From: a virus
Taxonomy: Duplodnaviria > Heunggongvirae > Uroviricota > Caudoviricetes
Virus record (IMG/VR): IMGVR_UViG_3300037089_000535
Length of the DNA stretch: 64,000 nucleotides
Reading direction: 5' to 3' (one strand)
Shown: one piece after another, positions 526-40,831 of the stretch
Layout of the letters: every line of letters starts with the position of its first letter
How positions within the stretch are numbered: position 1 is the first letter of the stretch
Notes under the pieces: generated by a model
The model's database searches: none
Seen by the model: the letters and a program-made list of their open reading frames with translations, nothing else
What the model was told of the DNA's origin: nothing
Translations under genes and position numbers: made by a program

Positions 526-1374
526 ATGAAGAGTCACGAATTCGCTTCTGGAGTTTTACAGGGAGCTGATCACCGATACATTAGAACAAATTGTCAAGAT
601 GCAGTTCGTGTATTTAGCCGAACACTCCATGACAAGCTTTGGGGGAACAATACAGTTGTTGTCGGCGTTTGCGCTGACGGTTGCGGAACAGGCGAACACA
701 CAGAAGTTGGGGCGCAGCTTGGTGTTAATATTGCAACAGATGTAATATCAACAGAATATTTATCAGCTGCAAGTTTAGGTAATGAGGTTGATTGGAATAC
801 CATAAAAGACGATATTGTTGCTAGGGTTGGAAATATTGCACAGTCAGTATGGTCTCTTGAACAAGATTACAATGCGCTAATTATCGAGTACTTCTTTTTC
901 ACGATAATTGGTTTCGCAATGACCTCTGAAGAAACCACGTTCTTCCGTGCCGGCGATGGTGTTCTGATTGTCAATGGAGAAGATATCCCAATCAAAACGC
1001 CAGATGGTAACAGGCCAGAATATCTTGGCTACAATCTGTTGAGCAGTTCGATTCGACCTGATATCGAAATACTATTTAAAATTCCAACTGATAAAATTGA
1101 TCACTTCTTACTAGGCTCAGATGGATTGAAAGACATTTGCGCCGCAGAAGAAAAGCTCATCCCTAAGAAACAAGTGGGAACTCGCATCCCGAAGGAAGAA
1201 TTGGTTGGCCCTCTCAGTCAGTTCTGGACCGGGGATCAATACTTCGACGATCCCCAGGCGGTGCGCCGCAGACTGATGATGTTCAATGGTGGCCTTTGTG
1301 CTGATGCCAGGGCCGGCATTGCTCGCGATGACACTTCATTAGTTGTCTGCCGCCGCAGGAATTCAGAGCCATGA
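526..1374 (+). CDS. PP2C-family Ser/Thr phosphatase-like protein
   Basis: PP2C motifs are present: VCADGCGTG..GAQLG (DGxGG), RAGDGVLIV (GDSR-like) and LLGSDGLKD (SDGLwD). The stop overlaps the start of the next gene (ATGA). Confidence 0.5.
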   Translation: MKSHEFASGVLQGADHRYIRTNCQDAVRVFSRTLHDKLWGNNTVVVGVCADGCGTGEHTEVGAQLGVNIATDVISTEYLSAASLGNEVDWNTIKDDIVARVGNIAQSVWSLEQDYNALIIEYFFFTIIGFAMTSEETTFFRAGDGVLIVNGEDIPIKTPDGNRPEYLGYNLLSSSIRPDIEILFKIPTDKIDHFLLGSDGLKDICAAEEKLIPKKQVGTRIPKEELVGPLSQFWTGDQYFDDPQAVRRRLMMFNGGLCADARAGIARDDTSLVVCRRRNSEP

Positions 1375-3251
1375 TCAAAGAGGTCATTGTCGAAGCAGAC
1401 ATAATTAGACTGACGCCAAACTCAGTCAAGGGCGAGGGCGGCGAAGCAATAATCTATGGCTTGCCTGGAAAAAAAGCCCTGAAGATATTCAAGGAACCCG
1501 ATCATCCTGACTTTGCTGGAAAGCCAGAAGCTCAGCAAGCGGCATTGGCGAGAATCAATCAGCACCAAAAGAAGCTTCCCGCCATCCCAAAGAGTTTACC
1601 AAGTAGTGTTATCGTTCCGGATGCGCTTGCATTTACAACCGATCATTCAAAGAAGATAGCCGGTTACCGCATGCCATTCATTAGCGGCACAAACGTTCTG
1701 CTTGAATACGGCGATCAGGAATTCAGAGCTGGCATCTCAAATGATCGTGTTCGAAACGTCTTTGCAAAGATCCACGAGGCATTTGTTGGACTCCATGCGC
1801 ATAGAGTTATCCTTGGTGACGTCAACCCGCTGAACATCTTGGTGTTGGCGAAGTCGGATACGCCGTACATTATCGACATTGATAGTGCATCGATTGATGG
1901 CTTCCCGTCATTCATGTTCACGCAGGCCTATATCGATCCATTGCTGTGCGATCCGAGCCTGAAAGAACCAAAGCTAGTCAAGCATCACACTACCGATTCT
2001 GATTGGTATTCGTTCTGCGTCATGCTCATGCAGTGCATGCTCTTCGTTCATCCGTATGGCGGCATCTATAAGCCAGTTGACAAGACCAAAAAGATTGCGC
2101 ACACGGCAAGATGTCTGCACAAGATAAGCGTGTTCAATCCTGAAGTTGGGTATCCAAAGACAGCGATACATTACAGCGCGCTATCGGATGAATTGTGCCA
2201 CTATCTAATTGGCATCTTCGAGCAGGGAAAGCGTAGTGTCTTTCCGGTGAAGTGTTTAGAGGAAATGCGCTGGACAAAGTGCAACGTATGCGGACAAGAA
2301 TACTCTCGTTCCGCCTGCCCCAACTGCGTGAAGGCTCCGCCAATTGCCGTCATTCAAACCGTGACGGTTAGGAAGAGTGTCACCGTGACGCAGATGTTTA
2401 ATACCACCGGGTCTATCGTATTTGCAACGGTTCAAAGGGGAAGGATGCTCTGGCTCTACCACGAAGCAGATGCGTTCAGGCGCGAAGATCGTACCATCGC
2501 TCTTAAGCATGAGATCGATCCTCGGTTCAAGTACCGAATAAATGGCATCTCAACTGTCATCGGAAGGGATGGGTCCGTTGTCGTTCTCACCCCAAACAAA
2601 ACACCGGTACCGCTCCAGACTGACATCGTTGGTGAACGACCGGCATTCGACGCAAATGCCGACAGCATATTCTGGACAACCAATGATCGGCTGAATAGAA
2701 ACGCGCCATTAGGGCCTGAATATATTGGCGCAGTAATTTCTGGGTTGACACATATCTGGGTTGGTTCAACATTCGGATTTGGATTCTATCGCGCTGGAGA
2801 ATTGAACATAGCCTTCATCTTCAGGACGAATTCAAGAGGCATCAACGATAGTGTAAAGGTACCCAGGATTCGAGGACAACTCATAGATGCAACCTGTTCG
2901 TTTACCGAGAAGCTCTGTTGGTTCTTTACATCCTCCCAAGAGAGTGGACAGACCATCAATCGCTGCGCAGTCATTCAACATGATGGAACTGTCTTGGCTT
3001 CGGCCGAGGCCATTCATGGAGATGGTTCGTGGCTATCGGGAATTCGCGGAGCAACGGCGGCAGGTAATGTCTTGCTTGCTCCAACCGATGATGGTGTAGT
3101 TCAAGTGAAGTGCAACGGAAACCAAATTGTCATCGTAAAGGAATTCCCTGATACAGAACCGTTTGTCAATTCAGGATCAAGACTTTTCGCCGCAGCAGAT
3201 GGGCTTTACGTAGTCGGGCGGCGCGACATTGTAAAACTTAAGATCAGTTGA
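1371..3251 (+). CDS. Hanks-type protein kinase-like protein with C-terminal Zn-ribbon and beta-rich domain
   Basis: Kinase motifs are present: a Gly-rich loop plus Lys (VKGEGGEAIIYGL...ALKIFK), a catalytic-loop-like HAHRVILGDVNPLNILV and IIDIDSA (DFG-like). A CNVCGQEY...CPNC zinc ribbon follows. Translationally coupled to the upstream PP2C gene. Confidence 0.5.
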   Translation: MIKEVIVEADIIRLTPNSVKGEGGEAIIYGLPGKKALKIFKEPDHPDFAGKPEAQQAALARINQHQKKLPAIPKSLPSSVIVPDALAFTTDHSKKIAGYRMPFISGTNVLLEYGDQEFRAGISNDRVRNVFAKIHEAFVGLHAHRVILGDVNPLNILVLAKSDTPYIIDIDSASIDGFPSFMFTQAYIDPLLCDPSLKEPKLVKHHTTDSDWYSFCVMLMQCMLFVHPYGGIYKPVDKTKKIAHTARCLHKISVFNPEVGYPKTAIHYSALSDELCHYLIGIFEQGKRSVFPVKCLEEMRWTKCNVCGQEYSRSACPNCVKAPPIAVIQTVTVRKSVTVTQMFNTTGSIVFATVQRGRMLWLYHEADAFRREDRTIALKHEIDPRFKYRINGISTVIGRDGSVVVLTPNKTPVPLQTDIVGERPAFDANADSIFWTTNDRLNRNAPLGPEYIGAVISGLTHIWVGSTFGFGFYRAGELNIAFIFRTNSRGINDSVKVPRIRGQLIDATCSFTEKLCWFFTSSQESGQTINRCAVIQHDGTVLASAEAIHGDGSWLSGIRGATAAGNVLLAPTDDGVVQVKCNGNQIVIVKEFPDTEPFVNSGSRLFAAADGLYVVGRRDIVKLKIS

Positions 3252-3279
3252 TTGGATAGTATAGAAAGGTAAAACACAA

Positions 3280-4338
3280 ATGCAACGTTCTCTTCTTCCA
3301 CTACCGCCATTTTTCAACACAGCAAATGCGAACAACTGGGATTATAGTCCAAGCCTAGATAAGCTTCGACTCTTCGCAGAAGAGTGGCGTAGAGATCAAA
3401 AGATCAAAGCGTCTGCTGCGGCGAAGACGAAGGTCACCGCTCTCATCATCGATGCCAACAAAGACTTCTGCCATCCGCGCGGGACCTTGTTTGTCAGCGG
3501 GAGATCGGGAACCGGCGCTGTCGATGATAGCAATCGCATTGCTAAGTTCGTGTACGAAAATCTCGACGTGATTACGGACATCGTTCCTACGATGGATACC
3601 CATAAGCGTTACCAGATCTTCACACCAACCTTTTGGCAATGGGCCGATGGGACTCCAGTTCCGCAGAACCAGATCATCCCCACGGATCTTGTTGCCTCTG
3701 GGAAGATCAAGGTCATCCCCTCAATGGTCAACTTCATTCCAGGTGCAACAAGCACTTGGATCAATGACTATGTTGTGTACTATGCGCGCAAACTCGAAGC
3801 CGATGGCAAGAAAGTTCTCATTGCTTTCGCTCCGCATTGCGTTCTCGGAAGCGATGGCCATCCGATCATCGGAACCGTTTTCGAAGCCATCTCGTTTCAC
3901 TCCTTCGTGCGCCGCGTGGAGAATGATCCAGAAGTCAAGGGCGGCAACGTCCTCACTGAGTGTTTCAGTGTCCTTGGCCCAGAGGTGAAGGTTGCGCACG
4001 ACGGAACCATTCTAGACAACGGTGAGAATCGCATGCGCATGATCAAGGCATTGCTGGCCGCCAACTACGTCGTTATCATGGGTCAAGCATCAAGCCATTG
4101 CGTGGCAAGTACAATCGACGATCTGCTTACGTGGATCTTGGCTAACGATCCAAGCCTGGCCCAGAAGGTATATATTGCCGAGGATGGTATGTCGGCTGTT
4201 AACCTCAGCGCATACGGCGGGCCAGACTTTACCGATGCGGCCACAGCTGCGCTTGACAAGTTCCGCAATGCGGGAATGCATGTCGTTCGTCTGAGCGAAC
4301 GAATGGAAACCTGGCCCGGCTTTCAACTGGCAGCCTAA
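3280..4338 (+). CDS. Isochorismatase-family cysteine hydrolase, nicotinamidase (PncA)-like with insertions
   Basis: ALIIDANKDFCHPRGTLFVSG matches the PncA N-terminal motif. TMDTH and APHC are candidate metal ligands. VVIMGQASSHCVASTIDD matches the catalytic-Cys motif of the isochorismatase family. Confidence 0.55.
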   Translation: MQRSLLPLPPFFNTANANNWDYSPSLDKLRLFAEEWRRDQKIKASAAAKTKVTALIIDANKDFCHPRGTLFVSGRSGTGAVDDSNRIAKFVYENLDVITDIVPTMDTHKRYQIFTPTFWQWADGTPVPQNQIIPTDLVASGKIKVIPSMVNFIPGATSTWINDYVVYYARKLEADGKKVLIAFAPHCVLGSDGHPIIGTVFEAISFHSFVRRVENDPEVKGGNVLTECFSVLGPEVKVAHDGTILDNGENRMRMIKALLAANYVVIMGQASSHCVASTIDDLLTWILANDPSLAQKVYIAEDGMSAVNLSAYGGPDFTDAATAALDKFRNAGMHVVRLSERMETWPGFQLAA

Positions 4339-4380
4339 ATTGATTCGATCTAATAGAAACACAAAACAAGGAATACGAAT

Positions 4381-5202
4381 ATGAGTTCTAGCTCTAGTTT
4401 ATTTACGTCCTCAACACAGGATAAGAATGTCACGGCGGCTCTAGTCCAAATCCCAGACTTGACCGCCAAGATCCAAGCTGGGCAAGGAATGCCCGCGGTC
4501 AATGCAAAGGTAAGTACCGCATTGCTTATCCAGCTGCTTCTCGATGATTCTGGTTCTATGCAAAGAAAAGACCCAGACCCCAATGTAACAAAGTGCAACG
4601 CAGAGCTTCTCTGCGATGGACACAACCTAATTCGCAACACCCTGTTGAATAGCAAACAGGGCGCTGATGTGTTCATGGCCGCGCGTACCCTCAGTGGAGA
4701 GGTGGTCTATCCATTCCGTAAGCTCAAGGAAGTTCCCGAGCTAGTTTATCGGCAGAACTTCTATGCGAATGGTGGCACGCCGCTCTATGATGAAATCGCA
4801 GTCACCTACGAAATCGTTGCCAAGCAGGTGGATGATTACGAAGAGGCCTGTATTCCGTGCCGAACAATCACGGTATTCATCACCGATGGCAGGGACGAAC
4901 ATTCCAGGGCTTTCAATGCAGCTAAGGAGCTTCTTCCATTGACGGTGGCACGCATGAATCACGAGATGGACGTAATCGCTGGCGTCGGGATTAGCGACGG
5001 ATACTACGACTTCCGCAAGATGTTCTTGGAGATGGGTCTGTCTGACAATTGGATCTTGACACCAAAGAACACCGAGCACGAATTCCGTGAAGTCTTTCGT
5101 GTGCTCTCGCAGTCGGCACTGAACGTCAGCCAAGCCGGCGTGGGTGGGTTTAGCCAAGCAACTTCTAGTGGCCTAAGCCAAGCTGCTGGCGGCTTCATTT
5201 GA
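4381..5202 (+). CDS. von Willebrand factor A (vWA) domain protein
   Basis: MIDAS motif LLDDSGSM (DxSxS), GGTPLYD and VFITDGRD. A strong hairpin at 5212-5250 follows the gene. Confidence 0.55.
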   Translation: MSSSSSLFTSSTQDKNVTAALVQIPDLTAKIQAGQGMPAVNAKVSTALLIQLLLDDSGSMQRKDPDPNVTKCNAELLCDGHNLIRNTLLNSKQGADVFMAARTLSGEVVYPFRKLKEVPELVYRQNFYANGGTPLYDEIAVTYEIVAKQVDDYEEACIPCRTITVFITDGRDEHSRAFNAAKELLPLTVARMNHEMDVIAGVGISDGYYDFRKMFLEMGLSDNWILTPKNTEHEFREVFRVLSQSALNVSQAGVGGFSQATSSGLSQAAGGFI

Positions 5203-5261
5203 CAGTTGTTCATTCTGTTCGGCATCATTAAATTGGTGCCGAACAGAATCAGAGGTGAAAA

Positions 5262-6776
5262 ATGAAACTAGCCGGTACACTAAAGTGTGAAATAATCAAG
5301 CCGATTAATTCGGATGGAAAATCAATTTGGAACGAAGTCGGCCCAAGATTAATGGCCTTGAGAAAAACTTTAGCTCCGGCATTGACAATGACGATGCGGG
5401 AATTATATCCGCAAGCGGTTGGTGTCATTTACCTTTTTAAGTCGGGCAATAAGGACGAGGCTCGAACAGCTCAACAACAATGGACCGGCTTAGTTGAGAA
5501 GACATTGCGCAAGCATTGGAATGAAGAACTATTTGGGCGGCTCAATCACCTGAAAAGCAAACTTAAGGAAGAAGATGGAGAGGAACGTCTCAAAACCATT
5601 ACTTCTGCCAACGGTCCAATTCAGGAGTATTTATCTTCCGAGACACGCCACAACATCATATCCCGATGGAAGGGTGAACCATTTAAAGATCTGTTGGTTT
5701 CGAAAGTTTCGGTTCCATCATGGACAACTGGGTGTGCATTCTACGCCAGGAATCGCGAGTGCCCTGTTAGTGGAGACCCCGATAAGGCCCGATTGGGATT
5801 TCCTCTTTTCGGTGGTGGCAACAAACGAACAACACTGGTGGTGGCTCCCTGCGGTGATGGGCATGAAGCACTTTGGAAGAGGTTAGTTGCCGGCGAGATC
5901 AAGCTCGGTCATGTTGGAATTAGTTACAATCTTCGAAAACATAAGTGGTATGCATTAATCTCGTGGTTGGAGGAACGTGAAGAGAATATTTCTGGCTCAC
6001 ATGTTGCTGCGGTCAATATGGGAATCAATGTATTTTTGCAGGCGGTGTCAGATGACGGATCTGAATTCCATGTTGATGGCGGAGATATATTAGCTACCAG
6101 AAGACGATTTTATGGTCGTCGCAAGAGCATTCAGAAGTCTTTGGATAAGATGGGGAGAGGAGCACATGGACATGGGCGCAATCGATTGCTCCGTCCAATT
6201 ACGAATCTTGGCGATTGCGAATCAAGGTACATGTCCAGTAAGTGCAGAACAGTGGCGGCTGAACTCATCAAGTGGTGTGTTAGGCACAACATTGGTCGAT
6301 TGATTTTGGAGGATCTGAGTAGGATAAGGGAGACAGACGAAGCCAAAGATACTCATGAGGAAGTCAAGCGACTAATTCATTCATGGCCTTATGCTGAATT
6401 AACTGCTGCGATTACCAGACAAGGTGCTGAGTTTGGAGTCTCCATCGAAACTCGGGAAGCCTACTATAATAGTCAGCGATGTCCTATTTGCGGACACACC
6501 CATCAGGACAATGTTCGAATCATTGAAGACCGCAGAGACATCATGGTTGATTCCGAGGGAAGGAGATGGGAAAGAAGTTTGAGCAAAAGATCATTCTTCA
6601 CTTGTAAAAAGTGTGACTTCGATGCAAGTGGAGATTTGGTTTCGGCGTCTAATCTACTTCAATCTGTAACAGGATATAGCTCTATTCTCACGACTAAAAA
6701 TAAGGCTAACCACAAGGCCACTAACAAAAGCAAAGCCAAGGGTGATCGGGCTATGGAGTCACCAGGAGAATCATGA
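5262..6776 (+). CDS. TnpB/Cas12-like RuvC-fold protein (compact type V-like effector candidate); RuvC-I Asp apparently replaced by Asn
   Basis: RuvC-I-like AAVNMGINV aligns to the GIDLG motif with N in place of D. RuvC-II RLILEDLS has the Glu. A Zn finger CPICGH...CKKC is present. RuvC-III FDASGDLVSASNL is ADxNAAxNI-like. The Arg/Lys-rich RRRFYGRRKSIQKSL...HGHGRNRLL is typical of TnpB. A GGTGA ribosome-binding site lies upstream. The gene sits immediately upstream of a CRISPR array. Confidence 0.7.
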   Translation: MKLAGTLKCEIIKPINSDGKSIWNEVGPRLMALRKTLAPALTMTMRELYPQAVGVIYLFKSGNKDEARTAQQQWTGLVEKTLRKHWNEELFGRLNHLKSKLKEEDGEERLKTITSANGPIQEYLSSETRHNIISRWKGEPFKDLLVSKVSVPSWTTGCAFYARNRECPVSGDPDKARLGFPLFGGGNKRTTLVVAPCGDGHEALWKRLVAGEIKLGHVGISYNLRKHKWYALISWLEEREENISGSHVAAVNMGINVFLQAVSDDGSEFHVDGGDILATRRRFYGRRKSIQKSLDKMGRGAHGHGRNRLLRPITNLGDCESRYMSSKCRTVAAELIKWCVRHNIGRLILEDLSRIRETDEAKDTHEEVKRLIHSWPYAELTAAITRQGAEFGVSIETREAYYNSQRCPICGHTHQDNVRIIEDRRDIMVDSEGRRWERSLSKRSFFTCKKCDFDASGDLVSASNLLQSVTGYSSILTTKNKANHKATNKSKAKGDRAMESPGES

Positions 6777-7396
6777 CCGAACTAACAAACGAAGAAAAAC
6801 TTAAACTGGAACGACTTCGTGAGCGATGTATTATAATTCAAGGACTCTTGAAGCGATGGCATGAGTCTGCGGTTGAAATTGTGATTGCCCTCAAAGAAGT
6901 TGATGATGAAGGTGATTGGAAGCTGTCCTATCCCAGCTTTGATAATTTTTTGGAGCGTAACTTTCCGAATTCTGGTTTTGGGCTTAAGAGATATCAGCAC
7001 ACACTGCTTTCGATTCAAGAGTATGGTGAGGAGCTGGTTAGAAAGATTGGCCCTGAAGCGGCCCATGTGATGTCGCACCCAAGAATTACCGAGGAGCCAG
7101 CACGAAAGAATGAAATAATTTCGAATGTTAATAACTACATGGAGGCCAATGGTAACGCCCCTAATGCGGATTGGGTGCGCGAACAGCGAAAGAGAATAGC
7201 ACCCGAAACAAATCAGCCACCAAGATCCACTATAGCAATGTCTGCGCTGGGAAGGACCTGCAAAGAGCGTGATGAATGGAGGCGAAAGTTCGAGGAGCTA
7301 CAGGTAAAATACGATAGTGCTGTGAGTGAAATTGAACAACTCCGTAAGCAACTAGGGAAAAATGCGAGCACCTCTACTTCTGATATGGTTTCATAA
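6773..7396 (+). CDS. Hypothetical protein, translationally coupled to Cas12-like gene (possible accessory)
   Basis: ATGA stop/start overlap with the Cas12-like gene. The ORF ends 70 nt before the first CRISPR repeat. No recognisable motif. Confidence 0.4.
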   Translation: MTELTNEEKLKLERLRERCIIIQGLLKRWHESAVEIVIALKEVDDEGDWKLSYPSFDNFLERNFPNSGFGLKRYQHTLLSIQEYGEELVRKIGPEAAHVMSHPRITEEPARKNEIISNVNNYMEANGNAPNADWVREQRKRIAPETNQPPRSTIAMSALGRTCKERDEWRRKFEELQVKYDSAVSEIEQLRKQLGKNASTSTSDMVS

Positions 7397-7465
7397 GGGC
7401 TAATTTTAGCACCGCTCGCAAACCATATTCTAGTTCTTTGAAAATTCAGCGTTTTTGACGGCAGG

Positions 7466-8261
7466 GTATCAGTAACCTTCGAGAGATTCAGTTGATGTGA
7501 GTTGACGAACGTCAGACCTACCGAAGCATTGGCAAAGTATCAGTAACCTTCGAGAGATTCAGTTGATGTGAGATTGAGAGTAGCCGTCGCACACCATCCG
7601 GGGATCTGGTATCAGTAACCTTCGAGAGATTCAGTTGATGTGAGATCAAATGAATGACGACGATGACAACGACGACGAGTATCAGTAACCTTCGAGAGAT
7701 TCAGTTGATGTGAGGCTAAGTCCCAAGGTCACTCTAAATCTTGGAACAAGTATCAGTAACCTTCGAGAGATTCAGTTGATGTGAGCTCCTACAAGCTCCG
7801 GCGACTCCATTGGGGCTGCGATGTATCAGTAACCTTCGAGAGATTCAGTTGATGTGAGTAGTAGTTGTTTCGCCTGTGCAATCCAGCTTTGACAAGTATC
7901 AGTAACCTTCGAGAGATTCAGTTGATGTGAGAATCCGCCGGTAGTGGATCATGCCACGGGGGACACGTATCAGTAACCTTCGAGAGATTCAGTTGATGTG
8001 AGAAAAGAATGGACACATGTATTTGATACGTGTTCTGGTATCAGTAACCTTCGAGAGATTCAGTTGATGTGAGAGCGAAATCGACCCACCCCCCTCCAGA
8101 CGTATCAGTAACCTTCGAGAGATTCAGTTGATGTGAGGTGTTAGAGTGCCCACATTGTCATGATGCTGATGACGTATCAGTAACCTTCGATAGATTCAGT
8201 TGATGTGAGAAGATGGACGCGAATGGTATCAGTAACCTTCGAGAGATTCAGTTGATGTGAG
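7466..8261 (+). CRISPR. CRISPR array: 12 repeats of 36 nt (GTATCAGTAACCTTCGAGAGATTCAGTTGATGTGAG), 11 spacers of 16-37 nt
   Basis: Exact repeats start at 7466, 7537, 7609, 7679, 7750, 7823, 7896, 7967, 8038, 8102, 8174 and 8226. Repeat 11 carries a G->T substitution (cgaTagatt). Spacer 9 is 28 nt and spacer 11 is 16 nt. Confidence 0.93.
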
Positions 8262-8367
8262 ATACATGGAACTGACTGTCGCCAATGTGCGCGCCATGCG
8301 TCACCACAGTTTCCGCAAAGCGGAAACCAAATCATTCCTGGCGGTGATTTGTTTGAGTCCAAATGCA

Positions 8368-10317
8368 CTACTTCAATTGGCTTAGTTCGCTGACGAAGCC
8401 ACCAGACAAAACAGGGAACCTGCACCACGTCTTAGGATCAAGATTATGGTTGTCTACGTGGAACGCTATAGCGTAGCGCTCTCTTTTCCATTGATTGCGC
8501 ACCCACATTGTAAAGAACTTCCTTACATACGAAATTGCCAATGGGTTGTCGGGCCTTTCGCGACGCAGACAATTGAGCACCTCTTGTGGTCCCTTCTTCT
8601 CCAGGATGGCCCACGTTTCAATGGCATCGAGAATATCGTAAGGCATCAGATCATCCTCGTCTGTCTGGCCTTGTCCTGGGCGTAACTCAGCCGTTGGCTT
8701 CTGACTCACGATACCCTTCAGTGATGGATAATCCGTGACCATCGTGTTCAACCATTCGAGCAAGAACGCCTTGTCGATGCCGCCGATAGGGGCAATGGAT
8801 CCTGCGGTGTCTCCATCCATCGTGCAATAACCAACGGCAGCCTCTGAGCGGTTGCTGGTAGTGATTAGAAGCTTGCCCTCTAGGTTAGCTACCATCCAAA
8901 TGCTTGGGGCTCGTGCACGGGCCTGGATATTCTGCAACGCAATATCATCATGCTCCCAGGTCAGAGCGCGGCCCTCAACTTGTTCTGCTAGGGCTATGTA
9001 TTGTTTAACGATGGCATCGATATCGATCACAGAGAATTTGGCACCAATCTCATTAGCCACGGCCCTAGCCGCTTCAAGAGTTGTTGTTGAGCTGTTCGAT
9101 GTGGACTGATACACGCAGGTAAGAAGCTTCTCAACAAGCACTCTTCGACCATGAATCAGGTATTGTTTAATTAAATCTTCATCTATTGGAATGTTGAATT
9201 GATTGAGAGCATCTTCAATGCCTTGAGATTCATTAATAACACGCCTAATCATCAGAGATACCAGCGAGGCACATGCGGCCGAATCAGCGCCTCCGCTAAG
9301 AGAAACCACAAACCCTTTTGAATGTGACTTCTCCAAATAATCAAACAGCCCCAATGTAATTGCGAGGGTAAACTCTTGATGCTTAGTGAATGATTCGCTC
9401 TGTATTGGCTTGGTTGCTTTTTCATCACAGGCAATATTTTTTATTTCATTAACAAGACCTTGAGTATAATCAACTACGCCGCCAGCTTCTAAATCTGGAG
9501 AGAAGCTAGCTGTGGCAATCGCTCTGGTTTTGATTAATGAAAGATCAATGACGGCTGTTGTTAAATTTACCTTGGCCATATTTAGGAATGGGCCGCGAGC
9601 TAGTAAATCGCCGCCGCTTGCGACAATACAATCGCCATCATAAATGGCACGACCCGCTTCATTACCAAGAAGATTTGCATAAATGTAGGCTACATTAAAT
9701 GCCCGCGAGCCCTCAACAACAAGTCTCTCTCTAGTAACTCGTTTTCCGAAAGCAAAGTGAGATGCCGATGGATTCAAAATAATGTTGACGCCTCTTCGCG
9801 CTAAAGCGTTACCCGGCCGCTCTGCAACGAAAGCGTCTTCGCAAATCTCAAAGCCTATATGTACGCCATCGATATAGAAAACCAAATCCCCAATCACATA
9901 ACCAGGACCCTCTATAACCAATTTGGCTGGCCATGGCTTGAACCATCGTGGTTCGTAATGAAGGCCGTCACCCGCTAGGTGTTGCTTGGGAACGATGCCT
10001 ATGATTTTCTCATCATAAACACAGACCATTACGTTGTACAAGCAGTTGCACCACAGAAATGGTATGCCAAAACAAGTAAAGATTCCGCTTGTTTGTGGTA
10101 GTAGATCGCATACTATTTCCCAAGCTGTAGTTATAACTTGCTCTGATAGGAAGTGATCTTCGCAACCATATCCGGTGATTGCCATTTCGGGCAAACAAAG
10201 AACTTTCACGCCAGCTCTTCTGGCTTCACCTAGAGCGTCGATGATGTTATGCTTGTTGCGCTCCCAATCGAGAGGCGTTTGATTCAAGGTCGCCGCACCA
10301 ACTTTGAGGTTTGACAT
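8368..10317 (-). CDS. nadE: Glutamine-dependent NAD+ synthetase (N-terminal CN-hydrolase domain + NAD synthase domain)
   Basis: An N-terminal nitrilase-like domain (LCLPEMAITGYGCED) is followed by the PP-loop SLSGGADSAACASL. 649 aa. Several short opposite-strand ORFs inside it are judged spurious. Confidence 0.85.
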   Translation of the reverse strand: MSNLKVGAATLNQTPLDWERNKHNIIDALGEARRAGVKVLCLPEMAITGYGCEDHFLSEQVITTAWEIVCDLLPQTSGIFTCFGIPFLWCNCLYNVMVCVYDEKIIGIVPKQHLAGDGLHYEPRWFKPWPAKLVIEGPGYVIGDLVFYIDGVHIGFEICEDAFVAERPGNALARRGVNIILNPSASHFAFGKRVTRERLVVEGSRAFNVAYIYANLLGNEAGRAIYDGDCIVASGGDLLARGPFLNMAKVNLTTAVIDLSLIKTRAIATASFSPDLEAGGVVDYTQGLVNEIKNIACDEKATKPIQSESFTKHQEFTLAITLGLFDYLEKSHSKGFVVSLSGGADSAACASLVSLMIRRVINESQGIEDALNQFNIPIDEDLIKQYLIHGRRVLVEKLLTCVYQSTSNSSTTTLEAARAVANEIGAKFSVIDIDAIVKQYIALAEQVEGRALTWEHDDIALQNIQARARAPSIWMVANLEGKLLITTSNRSEAAVGYCTMDGDTAGSIAPIGGIDKAFLLEWLNTMVTDYPSLKGIVSQKPTAELRPGQGQTDEDDLMPYDILDAIETWAILEKKGPQEVLNCLRRERPDNPLAISYVRKFFTMWVRNQWKRERYAIAFHVDNHNLDPKTWCRFPVLSGGFVSELSQLK

Positions 10318-10479
10318 TTTCTATTTTCTCAGGTGATATTGATTTACAATAATAAAACGCAATAGGGCGTGGGCATATTGGCAAGTCATCTAGCTGCAAG
10401 TCCAGCAGCTCTTCTTGAATCTGTAGCTGGAATTTTAGTTCCGCAGCAGGTAGAGCTTCGTCATCGTCCACAGCCAACC

Positions 10480-11973
10480 TCATAGCGAGATGTTAAAGTT
10501 CGCTTGGCGATTCGCTTTGCAGATGTCAACCAATGCTTGTGTAGCTGGCGAATACTGCGGTGGGATGTTGAGTCCCAGAGCTGCCGCTTTGAAGTTTGGT
10601 TCGTAATTTGTAAGACAGTTGCCCGCGTTTAGGCGATAGTAATTCGGAATGACCTCGCCCTCTTGCCCGATGATCCCAACTGGAACCTCCGGACTGATGT
10701 GCATGGGATGCGGGCGATAGACAACTGGGAGCCCCGGCACAGATTGTTTGCCGCTCTCGGCCTCATCTCCGAATTTCATAGTGGCTACGCTACCGCTCTT
10801 CGACAGCTTCCAGACGCCAGCCACATCATCGCGCCTGAATGTTTTCCACGTAGGCTCTACCAAATATCCGCCGTAGCCATATGACTGACGATCAGGCGAC
10901 CACTCCATTGTCTCGCGATACTTCTCGAACCGAATCGTCTTCTCTAGATTCCACCCGCTCTCCAAGATGAGTTGCGGCAACAGACCAAGGCGCAAGCATT
11001 CTGTTATGGTATAGAAGTAGTGGTTCTTGATTCGTTCTTCTGAGTCGAAACGAATGCCAGCGTTTCGATCAGGACGCTCTTGAATTGCGAGCAGTGCCGC
11101 CGGGATTCCAGATCGAATTGAATCAAACGTATCTGGTAAGTATGAAATGAAACCCGGGAATCGATCGCGCATTGTGATGAATGAATGGTAGTCACTGCCA
11201 AAGCGTTGAATGTGCTCGTGCCCCATCGTGCCTACCGGAATCATTCCAAGCTCTTTGGCTAGGTAGACATTCGATGTGCGCAGGATACCGGCCTCTTTGA
11301 TAGCGCTGAGGGCAATTTTGTGTTGTGCCATGCACGACACGGCACGCATTCCAACCTCAAAGATGCGATCAGGATTACCGCCAACAGCTTCCACCAAGGC
11401 TTTGGCTTTGGCCAAGATGCTTTGATAGTACTCGTCGGTTCGCACTTCAACCTCTGGTATTTTGCTACCGGCAAACAGACAAGCATTGAGAATGAGTTCT
11501 TTCTCTTCTTCGCATGTAGCGAACATCTTGTCTGGCAAGGCTCGAACCTTGGCCTGAGTTGCGACTTGAATAGTGAAGTTGAGCATGAGTGCTGTTGGCT
11601 CTAGCCAGCTTGAAACAGCCGATGGGCCAGTAACGGAGAAGGCCGGCTCTCGGCTATAGAACCAAGAACCCTCGGGAATGGACGATACCTTTACCGTATC
11701 GACCATTGAGAATGCTTTGCGATACGCCGCGCCAACTGCATAGGAGTTGGCTTCGAGGTATGAATAATCTTCGGCAAGCTCTTTCATTGGCTGGTGTGCA
11801 TCCGGAAGAAGGCCTTTGACGTACTTCGCTGCATCTATCGGCAGGAAATGCCAGCCGTAATGCCCGCCGCGCCGATGGGTGTAGTAAAATGTTTCCGTCC
11901 TTAACGGAAAGCCAGCTTCGGCCATCGAGAATTTGTACCCATCTGTCATTGTTATTCTCACATCAACTCGCAT
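10480..11973 (-). CDS. Nicotinate phosphoribosyltransferase-family protein (PncB-like; NAMPT not excluded)
   Basis: TDGYKFSM N-terminal motif and IPVGTMGHEHIQRF (cf. NAPRT GTMAHS). The first 6-8 codons of the tracked ORF fall inside a CRISPR-repeat relic. A more plausible start is Met9 (ATG at 11949-11947) with a GTGAGA SD-like sequence 7 nt upstream. Confidence 0.65.
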   Translation of the reverse strand: MRVDVRITMTDGYKFSMAEAGFPLRTETFYYTHRRGGHYGWHFLPIDAAKYVKGLLPDAHQPMKELAEDYSYLEANSYAVGAAYRKAFSMVDTVKVSSIPEGSWFYSREPAFSVTGPSAVSSWLEPTALMLNFTIQVATQAKVRALPDKMFATCEEEKELILNACLFAGSKIPEVEVRTDEYYQSILAKAKALVEAVGGNPDRIFEVGMRAVSCMAQHKIALSAIKEAGILRTSNVYLAKELGMIPVGTMGHEHIQRFGSDYHSFITMRDRFPGFISYLPDTFDSIRSGIPAALLAIQERPDRNAGIRFDSEERIKNHYFYTITECLRLGLLPQLILESGWNLEKTIRFEKYRETMEWSPDRQSYGYGGYLVEPTWKTFRRDDVAGVWKLSKSGSVATMKFGDEAESGKQSVPGLPVVYRPHPMHISPEVPVGIIGQEGEVIPNYYRLNAGNCLTNYEPNFKAAALGLNIPPQYSPATQALVDICKANRQANFNISL

Positions 11974-36048: not shown

Positions 36049-36444
36049 TTGGTGATCATGACAAAACGCCCAACCAAATTTGGAACAACTGTCCCTGAAT
36101 TGAAGGAAGTGATTGCCAAATACGGCTGTGGATTAGGTAGTGATCCACCTTATGTAGTGGTTGGCGAGTTCAATTCCAAGACAAAAGGGCCGTATGCGGG
36201 CATCCTGGCGGCCGCCCTAAACCAATTCCACGCCTACCTTATATGGCGTGAGGTCAACAAGAACGGCCGGGCGGACGTCAAGAGATCAGAATTCCATCCA
36301 AAGACAAATTTCTCCATCGCCCGCTACAAGCAACAACTTCGGGAAAAGATGGAAGCCGCCAAGCTGGCAGAGCAACAGCCAACAGAACCACGGCCCCGCC
36401 CGCGGATTGTATCGTGGTCTGGTAAAGAGAAAGAAAACGCATAA
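36049..36444 (+). CDS. Hypothetical protein
   Basis: ORF. Confidence 0.3.
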   Translation: MVIMTKRPTKFGTTVPELKEVIAKYGCGLGSDPPYVVVGEFNSKTKGPYAGILAAALNQFHAYLIWREVNKNGRADVKRSEFHPKTNFSIARYKQQLREKMEAAKLAEQQPTEPRPRPRIVSWSGKEKENA

Positions 36445-38360
36445 TGCCGAGTCTTAAAGAATTAATTGATCAGATTGATAAGCACGACAATTCTTACTAT
36501 AACGATTTCGTTTCGCTTATCTCTGATCAAGAATATGATGGCCTGAAAGATCAGTTAGCTTCACAGTCCAAAGACTTCCTGGCCAAAGATCATAAAGCTA
36601 AAGTAGATGTTTTGCTGGCTGAGCGCATTCGCGATGCGCTTACTCGCATCGGGGCTCCGCCGCCTGCCGATGGAAATTGGCCAAAATACCAACACGAAGT
36701 TCCCATGGCTTCCCTTAATAAGGCGAACACACCGGAAGAACTTGATGTTTGGTTTAAGAAATGCAAAGGCCCAAAGCTCATTCTTCTAACCGAGAAGATG
36801 GATGGGATGAGCATTAGCCTGAAGTACGAAAAGGGGAAACTGATCTGTGCTGCCACTCGTGGCGATGGCGATGTTGGGGAAAACATCACGCGCAATGTGC
36901 GGAAGATGTCCCGAGTTCCTTTTGAGATCAAAGGTTTCTCTGGGCACATCAGGGGAGAGATCGTTCTTCTGCGATCGGTTTGGAAGAAGTCTTTGCCGGA
37001 AATGGCAAACACGCGCAACGCAACCGGCATGTCAAAGCGCTCTGATGGTGACGGCTGCGAACATCTCACCATCTTTGCATACACCATCGAAGGCAAGGAG
37101 TTCAAAACAGAAGTCGAAGCCTACAATTGGTTGAAGAGCGTTGGTTTCAAGACACCCAATTTCGTGGTGGGCACTGCCGAAGATCTCAAAAAGATGTGGC
37201 AGAAGTACATGGATGAGACGCGAGATAGCCTTGACTGGGACATTGATGGTCTCGTTGGCCACATCAATGACCGAGCTGAGCGATACGCCCTTGGCGATGA
37301 AGGCCGAGGCCCAAAGGGATCCATCGCCTTCAAATTCGAAGCTCCCGAGGCGCGCACCATTGTTACAGACATCGTATGCCAGACCGGCGATACTGGTATC
37401 ATCACGCCGGTTTCAGAATTCGAAGAAATTGAATTGCTCGGCGCAAAAATTAAGAGAGCATCTCTACATAACTTCTCTTTGGTAAAAGAACTCGGCGTAA
37501 ACATTGGCGCTGAAATTCTAGTAACCCGGGCCAATGACGTAATTCCGTACGTCAAAGAAGTTACCAAGCCGAACAACGGATATTTTGGAATCCCAGAACA
37601 CTGCCCTTCTTGCGGTACCAAGCCCGTGCGCGTTGGCGAATACGTTCGTTGCCCCAACAAAAAGACCTGCCCAGCTCAAGTCATCGGCAGATTGAACAAG
37701 TGGATCAAGGAACTTGGCATTCTTGAATGGGGCGAATCAATTCTAACGAAGCTCATCGCAGCCGGCAAGGTCACTGACATCGCTGACCTGTATCGACTCA
37801 AAGCGTCAGACATCACTAGTCTCGAACGCATGGGCGATAAAGGGGCCGAGAAGCTTTTGAAGGAACTTGACAAGTACCGAGCAGTGACCCTGGAGAACTT
37901 CCTCGGCGGTCTCTGTATTGATGGCGTGGCAACCTCTACAGTGAAATCTGTCATGAATGCCGGCCACGATACTCTTGACAAGATACGTGCACTCTCTCCA
38001 TATCGGTTGGAGCAGGTTTCTGGATTCGGACCGAAGCGGGCCAATGCGCTTCTAGATGGGCTGGAAGAAAACGAAGAAAGAATAGCGGATATCCTCAGCG
38101 CCGGGGTGACCATCAAAGTAAAGATCAGGGGCGCACTCAGCGGCAAACGCTTTGCATTCACAGGAACAATGGCCACGCCGCGTAAGCAACTTCAGAATAT
38201 GGTGACAGAAGCAGGCGGCGAGGTTGATAAATCAGTAGGTGCAAAAACCACATACCTCGTTATAGATGATGTTGCCAGTACAAGTAGCAAGGCCGTGGCA
38301 GCGCGTAAGCTGGGCACGGAACTAATATCTGAGGCAGACTTCCTCGCAATGGCTCAATAG
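36444..38360 (+). CDS. ligA: NAD+-dependent DNA ligase
   Basis: Adenylation motif EKMDGMSISLKY (KxDG), a CPSCGT...C Zn finger, and a C-terminal BRCT-like domain. Confidence 0.88.
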   Translation: MPSLKELIDQIDKHDNSYYNDFVSLISDQEYDGLKDQLASQSKDFLAKDHKAKVDVLLAERIRDALTRIGAPPPADGNWPKYQHEVPMASLNKANTPEELDVWFKKCKGPKLILLTEKMDGMSISLKYEKGKLICAATRGDGDVGENITRNVRKMSRVPFEIKGFSGHIRGEIVLLRSVWKKSLPEMANTRNATGMSKRSDGDGCEHLTIFAYTIEGKEFKTEVEAYNWLKSVGFKTPNFVVGTAEDLKKMWQKYMDETRDSLDWDIDGLVGHINDRAERYALGDEGRGPKGSIAFKFEAPEARTIVTDIVCQTGDTGIITPVSEFEEIELLGAKIKRASLHNFSLVKELGVNIGAEILVTRANDVIPYVKEVTKPNNGYFGIPEHCPSCGTKPVRVGEYVRCPNKKTCPAQVIGRLNKWIKELGILEWGESILTKLIAAGKVTDIADLYRLKASDITSLERMGDKGAEKLLKELDKYRAVTLENFLGGLCIDGVATSTVKSVMNAGHDTLDKIRALSPYRLEQVSGFGPKRANALLDGLEENEERIADILSAGVTIKVKIRGALSGKRFAFTGTMATPRKQLQNMVTEAGGEVDKSVGAKTTYLVIDDVASTSSKAVAARKLGTELISEADFLAMAQ

Positions 38361-40300: not shown

Positions 40301-40831
40301 ATGGAATCAAAAGAACTAGTTAAGAAGAGCAAATATCTGAGTCTTATTCTTCGGCATGATCCTGCTAAAGCCAATCTAACTCTAGATGAACATGGTTGGG
40401 TTTTGGTAAATACTCTTCTTAAATCTATAGGATGGGGATTGTTCGAGCTAGTAGAGGTTGTTCAGGAAAACGACAAGAAACGTTTTGAGTTCAGTGAAAA
40501 TGGAAAGAAGATTCGTGCTAGCCAAGGACATTCTGTTTATGTTGATCTTGGTTATGAGATAAAGGAACCTCCAGAGTTTCTTTATCACGGAACATCTAGT
40601 GACAACAATAAATCAATATCAGAGCGTGGTCTGTTGAAAAGAGATCGCCATGATGTTCATCTGTTCGATGATAAGGATAAGGCATTTGACATTGCAAAGA
40701 ATCGCCGTAGGAATCATTGTGTCTTGACAATTAGCGCAAAGCAAATGTCAGAAGATGGATTTCAATTCAGGCTTTCGACCAACAATGTTTGGCTAACAGA
40801 GACAGTGCCGCCGAAGTACATTGTCTGGTAA
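40301..40831 (+). CDS. kptA: RNA 2'-phosphotransferase (Tpt1/KptA family)
   Basis: LSLILRHDP, LYHGTSS and RDRHDVHL motifs. Confidence 0.8.
   Translation: MESKELVKKSKYLSLILRHDPAKANLTLDEHGWVLVNTLLKSIGWGLFELVEVVQENDKKRFEFSENGKKIRASQGHSVYVDLGYEIKEPPEFLYHGTSSDNNKSISERGLLKRDRHDVHLFDDKDKAFDIAKNRRRNHCVLTISAKQMSEDGFQFRLSTNNVWLTETVPPKYIVW

What the first reader, a model, noticed from the sequence alone, without database searches (positions are those of the whole stretch)
3280..11973. Phage-encoded Preiss-Handler NAD+ salvage set (PncA-like, PncB-like, NadE) flanking the CRISPR locus
A nicotinamidase-like isochorismatase-family enzyme, a nicotinate phosphoribosyltransferase-family enzyme and a glutamine-dependent NAD synthetase are all present. 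No NaMN adenylyltransferase is seen in the window.

Phage NAD+ reconstitution pathways are known counter-measures against NAD-depleting defences. This particular PncA/PncB/NadE combination differs from the described Adps/Namat and Nampt/Nmnat pairs.
Basis: partly seen in the sequence, partly recalled or inferred. Interest (0 to 1): 0.6.

Follow-up and report, generated by a model that had tools for sequence, protein, structure and literature searches.

The report
Phage NAD salvage genes with phospho-switch
A probable giant-phage fragment carries three of the four enzymes that rebuild NAD+ from nicotinamide via nicotinic acid, and its nicotinamidase sits in a widely conserved, apparently undescribed four-gene cassette with a protein kinase, a phosphatase and a vWA protein.

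Summary
ORF 3280-4338 is a long-form nicotinamidase, by fold and catalytic and metal residues. ORF 10480-11973 is a divergent nicotinate phosphoribosyltransferase (NAPRT), not NAMPT. ORF 8368-10317 is a full-length glutamine-dependent NAD+ synthetase. No NMNAT/NadD or Prs/Adps was found in the window. No NMNAT/NadD was found in about 20 kb of extra flank.

Preiss-Handler gene sets (pncB-nadD-nadE) have already been reported bioinformatically in jumbo phages (PMC11662467). Relatives with the same PncB-NadE pair carry a NadD-like gene nearby. The anti-defence role is untested.

The cassette is PP2C phosphatase (526-1374), Ser/Thr kinase with Zn-ribbon and beta-propeller (1371-3251), nicotinamidase, and a vWA/MIDAS protein (4381-5202). 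It recurs in 13 large IMG/VR contigs and in about 60% of sampled metagenomic loci of this nicotinamidase family. It also occurs in Myxococcota (between PncB and PncA) and in a candidate-phylum bacterium (Uhrbacteria), often next to NrtR or NAPRT genes.

In the closest relative the cassette and PncB-NadE form one co-directional block. Here a Cas12f-like gene and a CRISPR array are inserted and PncB-NadE is inverted.

Verdict: a new variant of a known kind, of moderate interest.

The parts
526..1374 (+). PP2C-family Ser/Thr phosphatase (282 aa), first gene of the conserved four-gene cassette
   Evidence: Pfam PF13672 PP2C_2, E 1.1e-12, above the cut-off. A homologue lies directly upstream of the kinase in Myxococcota, Uhrbacteria, IMG/VR and metagenome loci.
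1371..3251 (+). Hanks-type Ser/Thr protein kinase (about residues 1-300) + C4 zinc ribbon (about 304-319) + seven-bladed beta-propeller (329-626)
3280..4338 (+). Long-form nicotinamidase (PncA-like, 352 aa): nicotinamide to nicotinate + NH3 (predicted)
   Evidence: The fold's best matches are solved nicotinamidases (E about 1e-8, target TM-score 0.69-0.79). The invariant residues D58/K220/C274 and D106/H108/H186 fit the nicotinamidase catalytic and metal sites. It lies directly downstream of a NAPRT-type gene in about 45 Myxococcota genomes.
4381..5202 (+). vWA-like protein with a complete MIDAS motif (273 aa), last gene of the cassette
   Evidence: D55-x-S57-x-S59, T133 and D169 are invariant in 18 homologues. 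The profile weakly matches a solved double-vWA protein at the MIDAS segments (4cn8, E 1.2e-3). NCBIfam gives a hint to the cobaltochelatase vWA region (E 0.059). phrog_7371 (unknown function), E 3.6e-7. Always follows the nicotinamidase in cassette loci.
5262..6776 (+). Cas12f/Cas12u3-like effector (504 aa). It is an insertion inside the NAD block, not part of the pathway.
   Evidence: PADLOC Cas12u3 E 3.4e-40 and Cas12f E 2e-38. Pfam Cas12f1-like_TNB. The segment 5207-8481 has no counterpart in the closest relative L104.
7466..8261 (.). CRISPR array: 12 copies of a 36-nt repeat (GTATCAGTAACCTTCGAGAGATTCAGTTGATGTGAG), start-to-start spacing 64-73 nt for 10 of 11 intervals (last interval 52 nt)
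   Evidence: the repeat finder family D1. The reported 52-nt copies include 16 nt of spacer.
8368..10317 (-). Glutamine-dependent NAD+ synthetase NadE (649 aa): NaAD + ATP + Gln to NAD+
   Evidence: Pfam CN_hydrolase 5.7e-17 and NAD_synthase 1.1e-36. TIGR00552 111 bits, above its cut-off of 63.65. PDB 3ilv E 3.9e-167, both domains. The SGGADS ATP-pyrophosphatase loop and the FEICED nitrilase-type cysteine segment are visible in the sequence.
10480..11973 (-). Divergent nicotinate phosphoribosyltransferase (PncB-like, 497 aa; 489 aa from the ATG at 11949): nicotinate + PRPP to NaMN (predicted)
   Evidence: The invariant G248-T249-x-G251-H252 aligns with GTHAHS of Enterococcus NAPRT; the role of this histidine as the phospho-acceptor rests on prior knowledge. 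Followed by a nicotinamidase gene in 69 of 80 bacterial loci, and by NadE in the window's relatives.
36444..38360 (+). NAD+-dependent DNA ligase (LigA): an NAD+ consumer encoded by the same element (context)
   Evidence: Pfam DNA_ligase_aden 3.1e-37, OB, HhH and BRCT domains.
40301..40831 (+). Tpt1/KptA RNA 2'-phosphotransferase: consumes NAD+ and releases nicotinamide (context)
   Evidence: Pfam PTS_2-RNA 3.2e-42. The reaction chemistry is from established knowledge of the family.

Best explanation
A large, probably viral element carries a deamidated (Preiss-Handler type) NAD+ replenishment module.

The long-form nicotinamidase would convert nicotinamide to nicotinate. Nicotinamide is the product of SIR2/TIR-type NADases and of the element's own Tpt1. 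The divergent NAPRT would join nicotinate to PRPP to give NaMN. An adenylyltransferase not seen here would make NaAD. This is most simply the host's essential NadD, or a copy elsewhere in the roughly 390-kb genome. The glutamine-dependent NadE would amidate NaAD to NAD+.

The nicotinamidase is embedded in a TerY-P-like triad: PP2C phosphatase, Ser/Thr kinase with Zn ribbon and beta-propeller, and a vWA/MIDAS protein. I infer that this triad acts as a phosphorylation switch on the nicotinamide-to-nicotinate step or on the module as a whole.

Shown: the enzyme families, conserved catalytic residues, gene order and its conservation. Inferred: substrates, dependence on host NadD, regulation by the triad, and the benefit (NAD+ for phage LigA/Tpt1 and/or resistance to NAD+-depleting defence).
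For: Enzyme identities.

Nicotinate specificity is supported by context. The PncB-like gene is followed by the long nicotinamidase in 69 of 80 bacterial loci, 22 of them with PP2C and the kinase in between. It is followed by NadE in the window, L010/L104, L011 and L014.

The cassette PP2C-kinase-nicotinamidase-vWA is conserved:
- in 13 of 14 IMG/VR loci found with the kinase, on contigs of 42-545 kb;
- in an Uhrbacteria genome, a 7.25-Mb genome and a contig binned as Aenigmarchaeota;
- in 36 of 61 evaluable metagenomic loci of the nicotinamidase family.

Links to NAD metabolism. NrtR (NUDIX + NrtR winged-helix domain) lies next to the cassette in L100 and L101. Canonical NAPRTase plus SLOG/LSDAT genes lie next to it in L102. 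Neighbours of the PncB-like gene in IMG/VR loci are enriched in NUDIX/NrtR, NAD_synthase, ADP-ribosylglycohydrolase, CTP_transf_like and NADAR. Canonical NAPRTase occurs near the cassette in several phage loci.

The kinase keeps invariant residues matching the catalytic K, D, N and D of Hanks-type kinases. The vWA keeps a complete MIDAS.

The element encodes the NAD+ consumers LigA and Tpt1. In the closest relative, the cassette and PncB-NadE lie together on one strand.
Against: No adenylyltransferase was found in about 84 kb, so the pathway as encoded here is incomplete.

The PncB-like protein scores far below every curated NAPRT cut-off and has no Pfam hit. Its substrate is therefore inferred. 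No structure was modelled for it.

The nicotinamidase has no residues specific to cassette-type loci (71 cassette versus 47 non-cassette sequences; only position 254 differs). So nothing in it points to it being the kinase's substrate.

Most phage loci with the cassette lack PncB and NadE within 10 kb. The cassette and the PncB-NadE pair are therefore separable units.

No PADLOC TerY-P model matched. No experiment links any of this to defence. Virion hallmark genes were not seen in the window.
Confidence: 0.6

Rival explanations
1. The four-gene cassette is a self-contained TerY-P-type conflict or signalling system, for example defence or superinfection exclusion. The isochorismatase-fold enzyme would be its effector or sensor. 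It might remove nicotinamide or act on a larger pyridine nucleotide. PncB-NadE would be an independent metabolic pair that merely lies nearby.
For: The architecture matches the published description of TerY-P: vWA, PP2C, and an STK fused to a C-terminal Zn ribbon (PMC11090510). The cassette occurs without PncB or NadE in most IMG/VR loci and in more than half of metagenomic loci. A NACHT NTPase and SLOG/LSDAT genes are neighbours in L101 and L102. The 352-aa enzyme has about 140 residues more than classical PncA proteins.
Against: The same nicotinamidase family, with no cassette-specific residues, is the direct downstream partner of NAPRT genes in about 45 Myxococcota genomes and several metagenome loci. 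NrtR, a regulator of NAD synthesis genes (role from prior knowledge), flanks the cassette. There are no PADLOC hits for the PP2C, vWA or nicotinamidase proteins.
Confidence: 0.2
2. The genes are ordinary auxiliary metabolic genes. They raise NAD+ supply for the element's own NAD+-dependent ligase and RNA-repair enzymes and have no counter-defence role.
For: LigA, Tpt1/KptA and an RtcB/Thg1/HAD RNA-repair block are encoded in the same window. The 'NAD-jumbo phage' survey describes joint NAD+ synthesis and consumption genes in large phages (PMC11662467).
Against: This reading is not exclusive of counter-defence. Nicotinamide, the entry substrate, is the product of NADase defences, and the described NARP pathways show this selective pressure exists. 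Nothing here discriminates between the two roles.
Confidence: 0.35
3. A NadD-independent shortcut analogous to NARP1. The divergent PncB-like enzyme would couple nicotinate to ADPR-pyrophosphate to give NaAD directly, and NadE would finish the job.
For: No NadD was found in about 84 kb. The PncB-like protein is divergent from all curated NAPRT models. It is tightly paired with NadE. There is a precedent for a PRT homologue switching to ADPR-PP (Namat).
Against: No Prs/Adps homologue is present in the window. NadD-like genes lie within 10 kb of the PncB-NadE pair in L011 and L014 and near PncB-like genes in other IMG/VR loci. The same PncB-like family lies in a PncB-nicotinamidase gene pair across Myxococcota genomes, the usual arrangement for salvage NAPRT (inference).
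Confidence: 0.05
4. It is the already described NARP2 (Nampt + Nmnat) or NARP1 (Adps + Namat) pathway, misread.
For: The only PHROG hit of the 497-aa protein is a family annotated as nicotinamide phosphoribosyltransferase (phrog_448, E 8e-9, N-terminal region only).
Against: The NAPRT models and structures beat NAMPT by about 14 orders of magnitude. The Pfam hits reported for Namat/Nampt (PF18127, PF04095) are absent. No NMNAT and no Prs-like gene was found. The presence of a nicotinamidase and a NadE only makes sense for the deamidated route.
Confidence: 0.03

Closest known systems
Bacterial Preiss-Handler salvage (PncA, PncB, NadD, NadE)
   Same: Three of the four enzyme families are present with conserved catalytic residues. 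pncB-pncA operon logic is seen in the bacterial relatives.
   Different: NadD is not encoded in the 84 kb examined. PncA is a 352-aa long form and PncB a divergent clade below all curated cut-offs. The genes are carried on a probable huge phage. The nicotinamidase is wired into a kinase/phosphatase/vWA cassette.
'NAD-jumbo phage' NAD+ synthesis clusters (e.g. the Kuafu_71 pncB-nadD-nadE cluster; PMC11662467)
   Same: Large uncultivated phages carrying Preiss-Handler genes together with NAD+-consuming enzymes, described from metagenomes.
   Different: That cluster includes nadD. It is not reported with PP2C, kinase or vWA genes (no paper holds nicotinamidase + PP2C + vWA). Here pncA is included and nadD is missing. 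The source sample is labelled 'WOOD18', not an animal gut metagenome.
NARP1 (Adps + Namat), NARP2 (Nampt + Nmnat), NARP3 (PnuC + NadR)
   Same: Mobile-element-encoded routes that rebuild NAD+, starting from products or precursors available after NADase attack.
   Different: The enzymes and intermediates differ. This route is deamidated, via nicotinate, NaMN and NaAD. It needs glutamine and more ATP. None of the defining proteins of NARP1-3 is present. There is no experimental evidence of counter-defence.
TerY-P triad (TerY-like vWA + PP2C + Ser/Thr kinase-Zn ribbon)
   Same: The same three domain types, including a Zn ribbon C-terminal to the kinase, arranged as one operon.
   Different: A nicotinamidase gene is inserted between the kinase and the vWA gene. 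The kinase carries an extra seven-bladed propeller. No PADLOC defence model matches the PP2C or vWA proteins. Known TerY-P associations are with tellurite resistance, DNA-processing and restriction systems (as summarised in PMC11090510), not NAD salvage.

Membership tests
Nicotinamidase (PncA/Pnc1, isochorismatase-like cysteine hydrolase) | Isochorismatase-like fold closest to solved nicotinamidases | tested here: met
   AF2 model pLDDT 91.8. Foldseek ranks 1-12 are all nicotinamidases (9u8m, 3r2j, 2wta, 3pl1, 2h0r, 1ilw, 3o93), E 9e-9 to 3e-6, target TM-score 0.69-0.79 for the single-domain targets.
Nicotinamidase (PncA/Pnc1, isochorismatase-like cysteine hydrolase) | Catalytic Asp-Lys-Cys triad and Asp/His/His metal site | tested here: met
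   D58, K220, C274, D106, H108 and H186 are invariant in 31 sequences. HMMER aligns D58 with the D8 region and C274 with the C138 region of M. tuberculosis PncA. It aligns WPPHC (H186) with Leishmania Pnc1. Residue roles are from prior knowledge. Spatial proximity in the model was not measured.
Nicotinamidase (PncA/Pnc1, isochorismatase-like cysteine hydrolase) | Match to the Pfam Isochorismatase model PF00857 or an NCBIfam nicotinamidase model | tested here: not met
   No Pfam hit at E <= 0.01 and no NCBIfam hit at E <= 1 for the window protein. Some homologues at 45-49% identity do carry PF00857.
Nicotinamidase (PncA/Pnc1, isochorismatase-like cysteine hydrolase) | Hydrolysis of nicotinamide to nicotinate | not testable with these tools
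   Needs an enzyme assay or pncA complementation.
Nicotinate phosphoribosyltransferase (PncB/NAPRT) | Sequence closer to NAPRT than to NAMPT or QAPRT | tested here: met
   Eleven NCBIfam NAPRT models hit (best 9.5e-21) and no NAMPT model. Profile against PDB: NAPRT 2f7f 2.6e-19, 4yub 4e-13; NAMPT 5e-3.
Nicotinate phosphoribosyltransferase (PncB/NAPRT) | Reaches the curated family cut-offs (NCBIfam equivalogs; Pfam PF04095/PF17767) | tested here: not met
   74 bits against a cut-off of 469 (NF006695). 73 bits against 297 (TIGR01513). No Pfam hit. It is a separate divergent clade (at least 800 homologues at E <= 0.001; none of the 120 listed has a precomputed Pfam domain).
Nicotinate phosphoribosyltransferase (PncB/NAPRT) | Conserved active-site histidine (the phospho-histidine of ATP-coupled NAPRT) | tested here: met
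   The invariant G248-T249-x-G251-H252 aligns with GTHAHS of Enterococcus NAPRT and GTLAHS of human NAPRT. The role of the histidine is from prior knowledge.
Nicotinate phosphoribosyltransferase (PncB/NAPRT) | Operon partnership with nicotinamidase | tested here: met
   69 of 80 bacterial loci have the long nicotinamidase downstream on the same strand.
Glutamine-dependent NAD+ synthetase (NadE) | N-terminal nitrilase-type glutaminase domain plus C-terminal ATP-pyrophosphatase synthetase domain | tested here: met
   PF00795 and PF02540. TIGR00552 is above its cut-off. The full-length equivalogs NF010588 and NF002730 are below theirs (254 against 479 bits). PDB 3ilv matches at 3.9e-167 over both domains.
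Complete phage-encoded Preiss-Handler pathway | NaMN adenylyltransferase (NadD/NadM/NadR, PF01467) | tested here: not met
   Absent from the window ORFs scanned or precomputed against Pfam, from the flanks and from an HMM search of the window, flanks and the relative's locus. The rest of the genome is not available. A pattern scan found none on the 392-kb relative, but the pattern was narrow.
NARP2 (Nampt + Nmnat) | NAMPT-family enzyme and an NMNAT in the same genome | tested here: not met
NARP1 (Adps + Namat) | Prs-like Adps adjacent to a NAMPT-like Namat (PF14572; PF18127 + PF04095) | tested here: not met
   None of these Pfam families was found in the window.
NARP3 (PnuC + NadR) | PnuC-like transporter plus bifunctional NadR-like enzyme | tested here: not met
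   No such Pfam hits.
TerY-P triad | Co-operonic vWA (TerY-like), PP2C and Ser/Thr kinase with a C-terminal Zn ribbon | tested here: met
   The definition is quoted from PMC11090510. The vWA assignment rests on the MIDAS motif and weak profile hits.
TerY-P triad | Sequence membership in known TerY-P or defence models | tested here: inconclusive
   PADLOC gave only generic kinase hits (PD-T4-6, mad6, MkoA; E >= 5.5e-6) and nothing for the PP2C or vWA proteins. I did not verify which TerY-P models that library holds.

The most novel reading that the evidence does not exclude
The PP2C / kinase(Zn-ribbon, propeller) / long nicotinamidase / vWA-MIDAS cassette is an undescribed, widely distributed phosphorylation-gated module. 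It would control, or sense through, the nicotinamide-to-nicotinate step. The kinase's propeller domain defines a family of hundreds of sequence clusters. The cassette occurs in Myxococcota, a candidate-phylum bacterium (Uhrbacteria) and at least 13 large IMG/VR contigs. In huge phages it would be combined with a divergent NAPRT and NadE into a regulated, deamidated NAD+ reconstitution pathway. That pathway would use the host's NadD and counter NAD+-depleting immunity, making it a fourth type next to NARP1-3.
Probability: 0.3. Interest if true: 0.75.

Novelty: new variant of a known kind. Interest (0 to 1): 0.55.

Why it matters
NAD+ depletion is a common end-point of bacterial immunity. The phage counter-pathways validated so far (NARP1-3) all use the amidated route.

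A deamidated route would show that phages can reinforce selected steps of a host pathway: nicotinamidase, NAPRT and NadE, with NadD left to the host. It would also explain why nicotinamidase, which is absent from NARP1-3, is carried by large phages.

Independently, the tight and widespread coupling of a nicotinamidase to a kinase/phosphatase/vWA triad suggests post-translational control of NAD salvage, or sensing of nicotinamide, that I did not find described. It gives a concrete enzymatic partner to a TerY-P-like triad, a module described in the source read here only as a hypothesised signalling switch (PMC11090510). The cassette is compact (about 4.7 kb) and should be testable by heterologous expression.

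Tried and rejected
- NAMPT/NARP2 and Namat/NARP1 readings: rejected on HMM and profile evidence and on the lack of partner genes.
- NARP3: rejected.
- Search for NadD/NMNAT: Pfam scans of nearly all window ORFs of 130 aa or more, a regex for the GxFxPxHxGH motif, a custom HMM from five NadD-like neighbours, and precomputed Pfam for 10 kb beyond both ends. All were negative. A scan of IMG/VR with the NadD alignment returned no locus on the 392-kb closest relative. The peptide pattern was narrow, so this is inconclusive.
- Megablast of window 1-24000 against GenBank phages: no match. tblastn found only about 30%-identical nicotinamidase-like genes in uncultured huge phages and distant NAPRT-like genes in cultured phages, so no cultured model is available.
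- PADLOC: no TerY-P or other defence-model hits apart from generic kinase and Cas12 hits.
- Cassette-specific residues in the nicotinamidase, as possible phospho-sites: none found.
- Promoter and terminator scan of 1-12600: counts at chance level, uninformative.
- Tandem Repeats Finder missed the CRISPR array; the repeat finder found it.
- PHROGs on 18 window proteins gave no virion hallmark, so viral identity could not be confirmed from the window itself.
- The 2012 paper that defined the TerY-P triad (PMC4104200) could not be read. I therefore cannot exclude that it mentions a nicotinamidase association.

Full report
**What is there**

The window is the reverse complement of part of a 108.5-kb metagenomic scaffold (ENA ERZ28656093, WOOD18-1 scaffold_117).

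Between 526 and 11973 the long ORFs are as follows:
- PP2C phosphatase, 526-1374 (+).
- A 626-aa kinase-like protein, 1371-3251 (+).
- A 352-aa protein, 3280-4338 (+).
- A 273-aa protein, 4381-5202 (+).
- A Cas12f-like protein, 5262-6776 (+).
- A 207-aa protein of unknown function, 6773-7396 (+).
- A CRISPR array of 12 x 36-nt repeats, 7466-8261.
- A 649-aa NAD synthetase, 8368-10317 (-).
- A 497-aa protein, 10480-11973 (-).

NadE is unambiguous. It has CN_hydrolase and NAD_synthase domains. It aligns over its full length with the solved glutamine-dependent NAD+ synthetase 3ilv at E 3.9e-167.

The 497-aa protein has no Pfam hit. It matches eleven NCBIfam NAPRT models (best 9.5e-21), all far below their cut-offs, and no NAMPT model. 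A profile of 30 family members matches solved NAPRTs at 2.6e-19 and 4e-13, but NAMPT only at 5e-3. The invariant GTxGH segment aligns with the active-site histidine segment of NAPRTs. It is a divergent NAPRT clade, not NAMPT or Namat. Both of those carry PF18127 and PF04095 according to the NARP paper.

The 352-aa protein has no Pfam or NCBIfam hit of its own. It belongs to a family of about 350-aa proteins that sources call nicotinamidase. Its AF2 model (pLDDT 91.8) finds solved nicotinamidases as its twelve best PDB matches. Invariant family residues fit the Asp-Lys-Cys triad and the Asp/His/His metal site.

**The missing step**

No cytidylyltransferase-like enzyme (NadD/NMNAT) was found by any of these searches:
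- Pfam scans of nearly all window ORFs of 130 aa or more. The three ORFs not scanned carry no precomputed Pfam hit.
- Precomputed Pfam for 10 kb beyond each end of the window.
- A motif search.
- An HMM built from five NadD-like genes of related loci.

No Prs/Adps, PnuC or NadR gene is present either.

However, in IMG/VR contigs that carry the same PncB-NadE pair at 49-54% identity (L011, L014), a NadD-like gene lies 5-9 kb away. Half of the IMG/VR loci with a PncB-like gene have one within 10 kb. The closest relative is a 392-kb contig, so most of this genome is unseen. A NadD elsewhere in the genome and use of the host's NadD are both open.

Homologues of the 626-aa kinase turned up next to the nicotinamidase everywhere I looked.

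- Myxococcota. In 80 bacterial loci (mostly Myxococcota) found with the PncB-like profile, 69 have the long nicotinamidase downstream. In 22 of them the order is PncB-like, PP2C, kinase, nicotinamidase, vWA. In most of the rest PncB-like is directly followed by the nicotinamidase.
- Other lineages. Starting from the kinase instead, I found the same PP2C-kinase-nicotinamidase-vWA order at 30-46% identity. It occurs in an Uhrbacteria genome, a 7.25-Mb genome and a contig binned as Aenigmarchaeota. NrtR lies next door in two of these. SLOG/LSDAT genes plus a canonical NAPRTase lie next door in the third.
- Viral contigs. The kinase profile finds 14 IMG/VR loci on contigs of 42-545 kb. Thirteen show the full order.
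- Metagenomes. In a metagenome sample taken with the nicotinamidase profile, 36 of 61 evaluable loci have the kinase upstream and 34 of 56 have the vWA downstream. Several of the others have an NAPRT-like gene directly upstream.

**The triad proteins**

The propeller domain alone defines a family of 553 representative clusters. Nearly all members share the same length of about 620 aa.

The 273-aa protein keeps an invariant DxSxS...T...D MIDAS motif and weakly matches vWA domains.

This is the architecture described for TerY-P triads: vWA + PP2C + kinase-Zn ribbon (PMC11090510). Here a nicotinamidase gene is inserted and a propeller added. I found no paper containing nicotinamidase, PP2C and vWA together. 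I could not read the 2012 paper that defined the triad.

**Local history**

In the closest relative (IMGVR_UViG_3300021077_000115) all six genes lie on one strand. The order is PP2C, kinase, nicotinamidase, vWA, a short ORF, PncB, NadE. Amino-acid identity to the window is 72-92%.

At the DNA level, window 467-5206 is collinear with the relative. Window 8482-11937 is the inverted PncB-NadE block. Window 5207-8481 (Cas12f-like gene, the 207-aa ORF and the CRISPR array) has no counterpart.

So the CRISPR locus is a recent insertion into an NAD block rather than a functional partner of it.

**Most likely function**

The enzymes fit the deamidated salvage route: nicotinamide to nicotinate (352-aa enzyme), nicotinate + PRPP to NaMN (497-aa enzyme), NaMN to NaAD (not encoded here), and NaAD to NAD+ (NadE).

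Context supports nicotinate specificity. NAPRT-nicotinamidase operons and NAPRT-NadE adjacency would make little sense for a nicotinamide-using enzyme.

The element also encodes two NAD+ consumers, LigA and Tpt1/KptA, within an RNA-repair block. The benefit could therefore be self-supply, counter-defence, or both. Nothing here separates these roles.

The triad most plausibly gates the module by phosphorylation, but this is inference. The nicotinamidase shows no residues specific to cassette-type loci, and most phage cassettes lack PncB and NadE nearby.

**Comparison and novelty**

Phage Preiss-Handler clusters (pncB-nadD-nadE) and phage pncA were already reported from gut jumbo-phage metagenomes (PMC11662467). 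PHROGs already holds phage NAD synthetase families. The bare statement 'phage with PncA/PncB/NadE' is therefore a new member of a known kind.

The new elements are the divergent NAPRT clade, the long nicotinamidase, the lack of NadD, and above all the conserved kinase/phosphatase/vWA cassette around the nicotinamidase. I rate the whole as a new variant of a known kind, with moderate interest.

**Caveats**
- Viral identity rests on the IMG/VR membership of relatives and on gene content: inteins, HNH endonucleases, ThyA/DHFR, RNR, a sigma factor and a mini CRISPR-Cas. No virion hallmark gene was found.
- Some IMG/VR loci that carry NrtR may be bacterial or prophage-flanking DNA.
- All substrate assignments are predictions.

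Noticed in passing
window 5262-8261: A compact Cas12f/Cas12u3-like effector (504 aa; PADLOC E 3.4e-40), a 207-aa ORF of unknown function and a 12-repeat CRISPR array. No other cas gene was recognised next to them. The whole 5207-8481 segment is absent from the closest relative, and the adjacent PncB-NadE block is inverted relative to it.
   Followed up: partly
window 36444-45879: An RNA/DNA repair block: NAD+-dependent ligase LigA, a PcfJ-like protein, Tpt1/KptA 2'-phosphotransferase, a Thg1-like guanylyltransferase, a HAD 'Swiss army knife' RNA-repair domain, a LAGLIDADG endonuclease and RtcB. Two of these consume NAD+.
   Followed up: partly
window 15927-18344 (-): An 805-aa ORF with a LAGLIDADG domain and a weak intein-splicing signal, so probably an intein-containing gene. 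The host protein was not identified.
   Followed up: no
window 55013-59090: A short ThiF-like E1 (199 aa), an inosine-uridine-preferring nucleoside hydrolase (297 aa) and an 86-aa PQ-loop (semiSWEET-like) membrane protein. A nucleoside hydrolase could in principle release nicotinamide from nicotinamide riboside. This is speculative and untested.
   Followed up: no
window 30344-35041: A YqiJ/NfeD-like protein, a 646-aa SPFH/Band-7 protein and a 642-aa FtsH-like AAA+/M41 protease in a row. This membrane-protein quality-control trio is unusual on a mobile element.
   Followed up: no
window 26329-30357 and L008:13934-16441: Nucleotide-metabolism genes: thymidylate synthase, DHFR, an Rv2179c-like exoribonuclease and a radical-SAM enzyme. 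A ribonucleotide reductase and a sigma-70-like factor lie just beyond the 3' end of the window.
   Followed up: no
L100:1922-2635, L101:4249-4941, L102:9981-12942: In unrelated genomes the four-gene cassette sits next to NrtR (NUDIX + NrtR winged helix), or next to two SLOG/LSDAT proteins and a canonical NAPRTase. A NACHT NTPase follows it in L101.
   Followed up: partly
L012-L019 (IMG/VR loci with a PncB-like gene): The neighbourhoods are rich in ADP-ribose-related genes: ADP-ribosylglycohydrolase (3), NADAR (1), YAcAr/SLOG (2) and NUDIX/NrtR (5-6). These contigs may be bacterial or proviral rather than strictly viral.
   Followed up: no
window 13018-13758 (-) and 12479-13021 (+): An R2K-clade ATP-grasp protein (PF18299, E 8e-40) and a small methyltransferase-like ORF lie next to the NAD block. 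Both are conserved in the closest relative.
   Followed up: no
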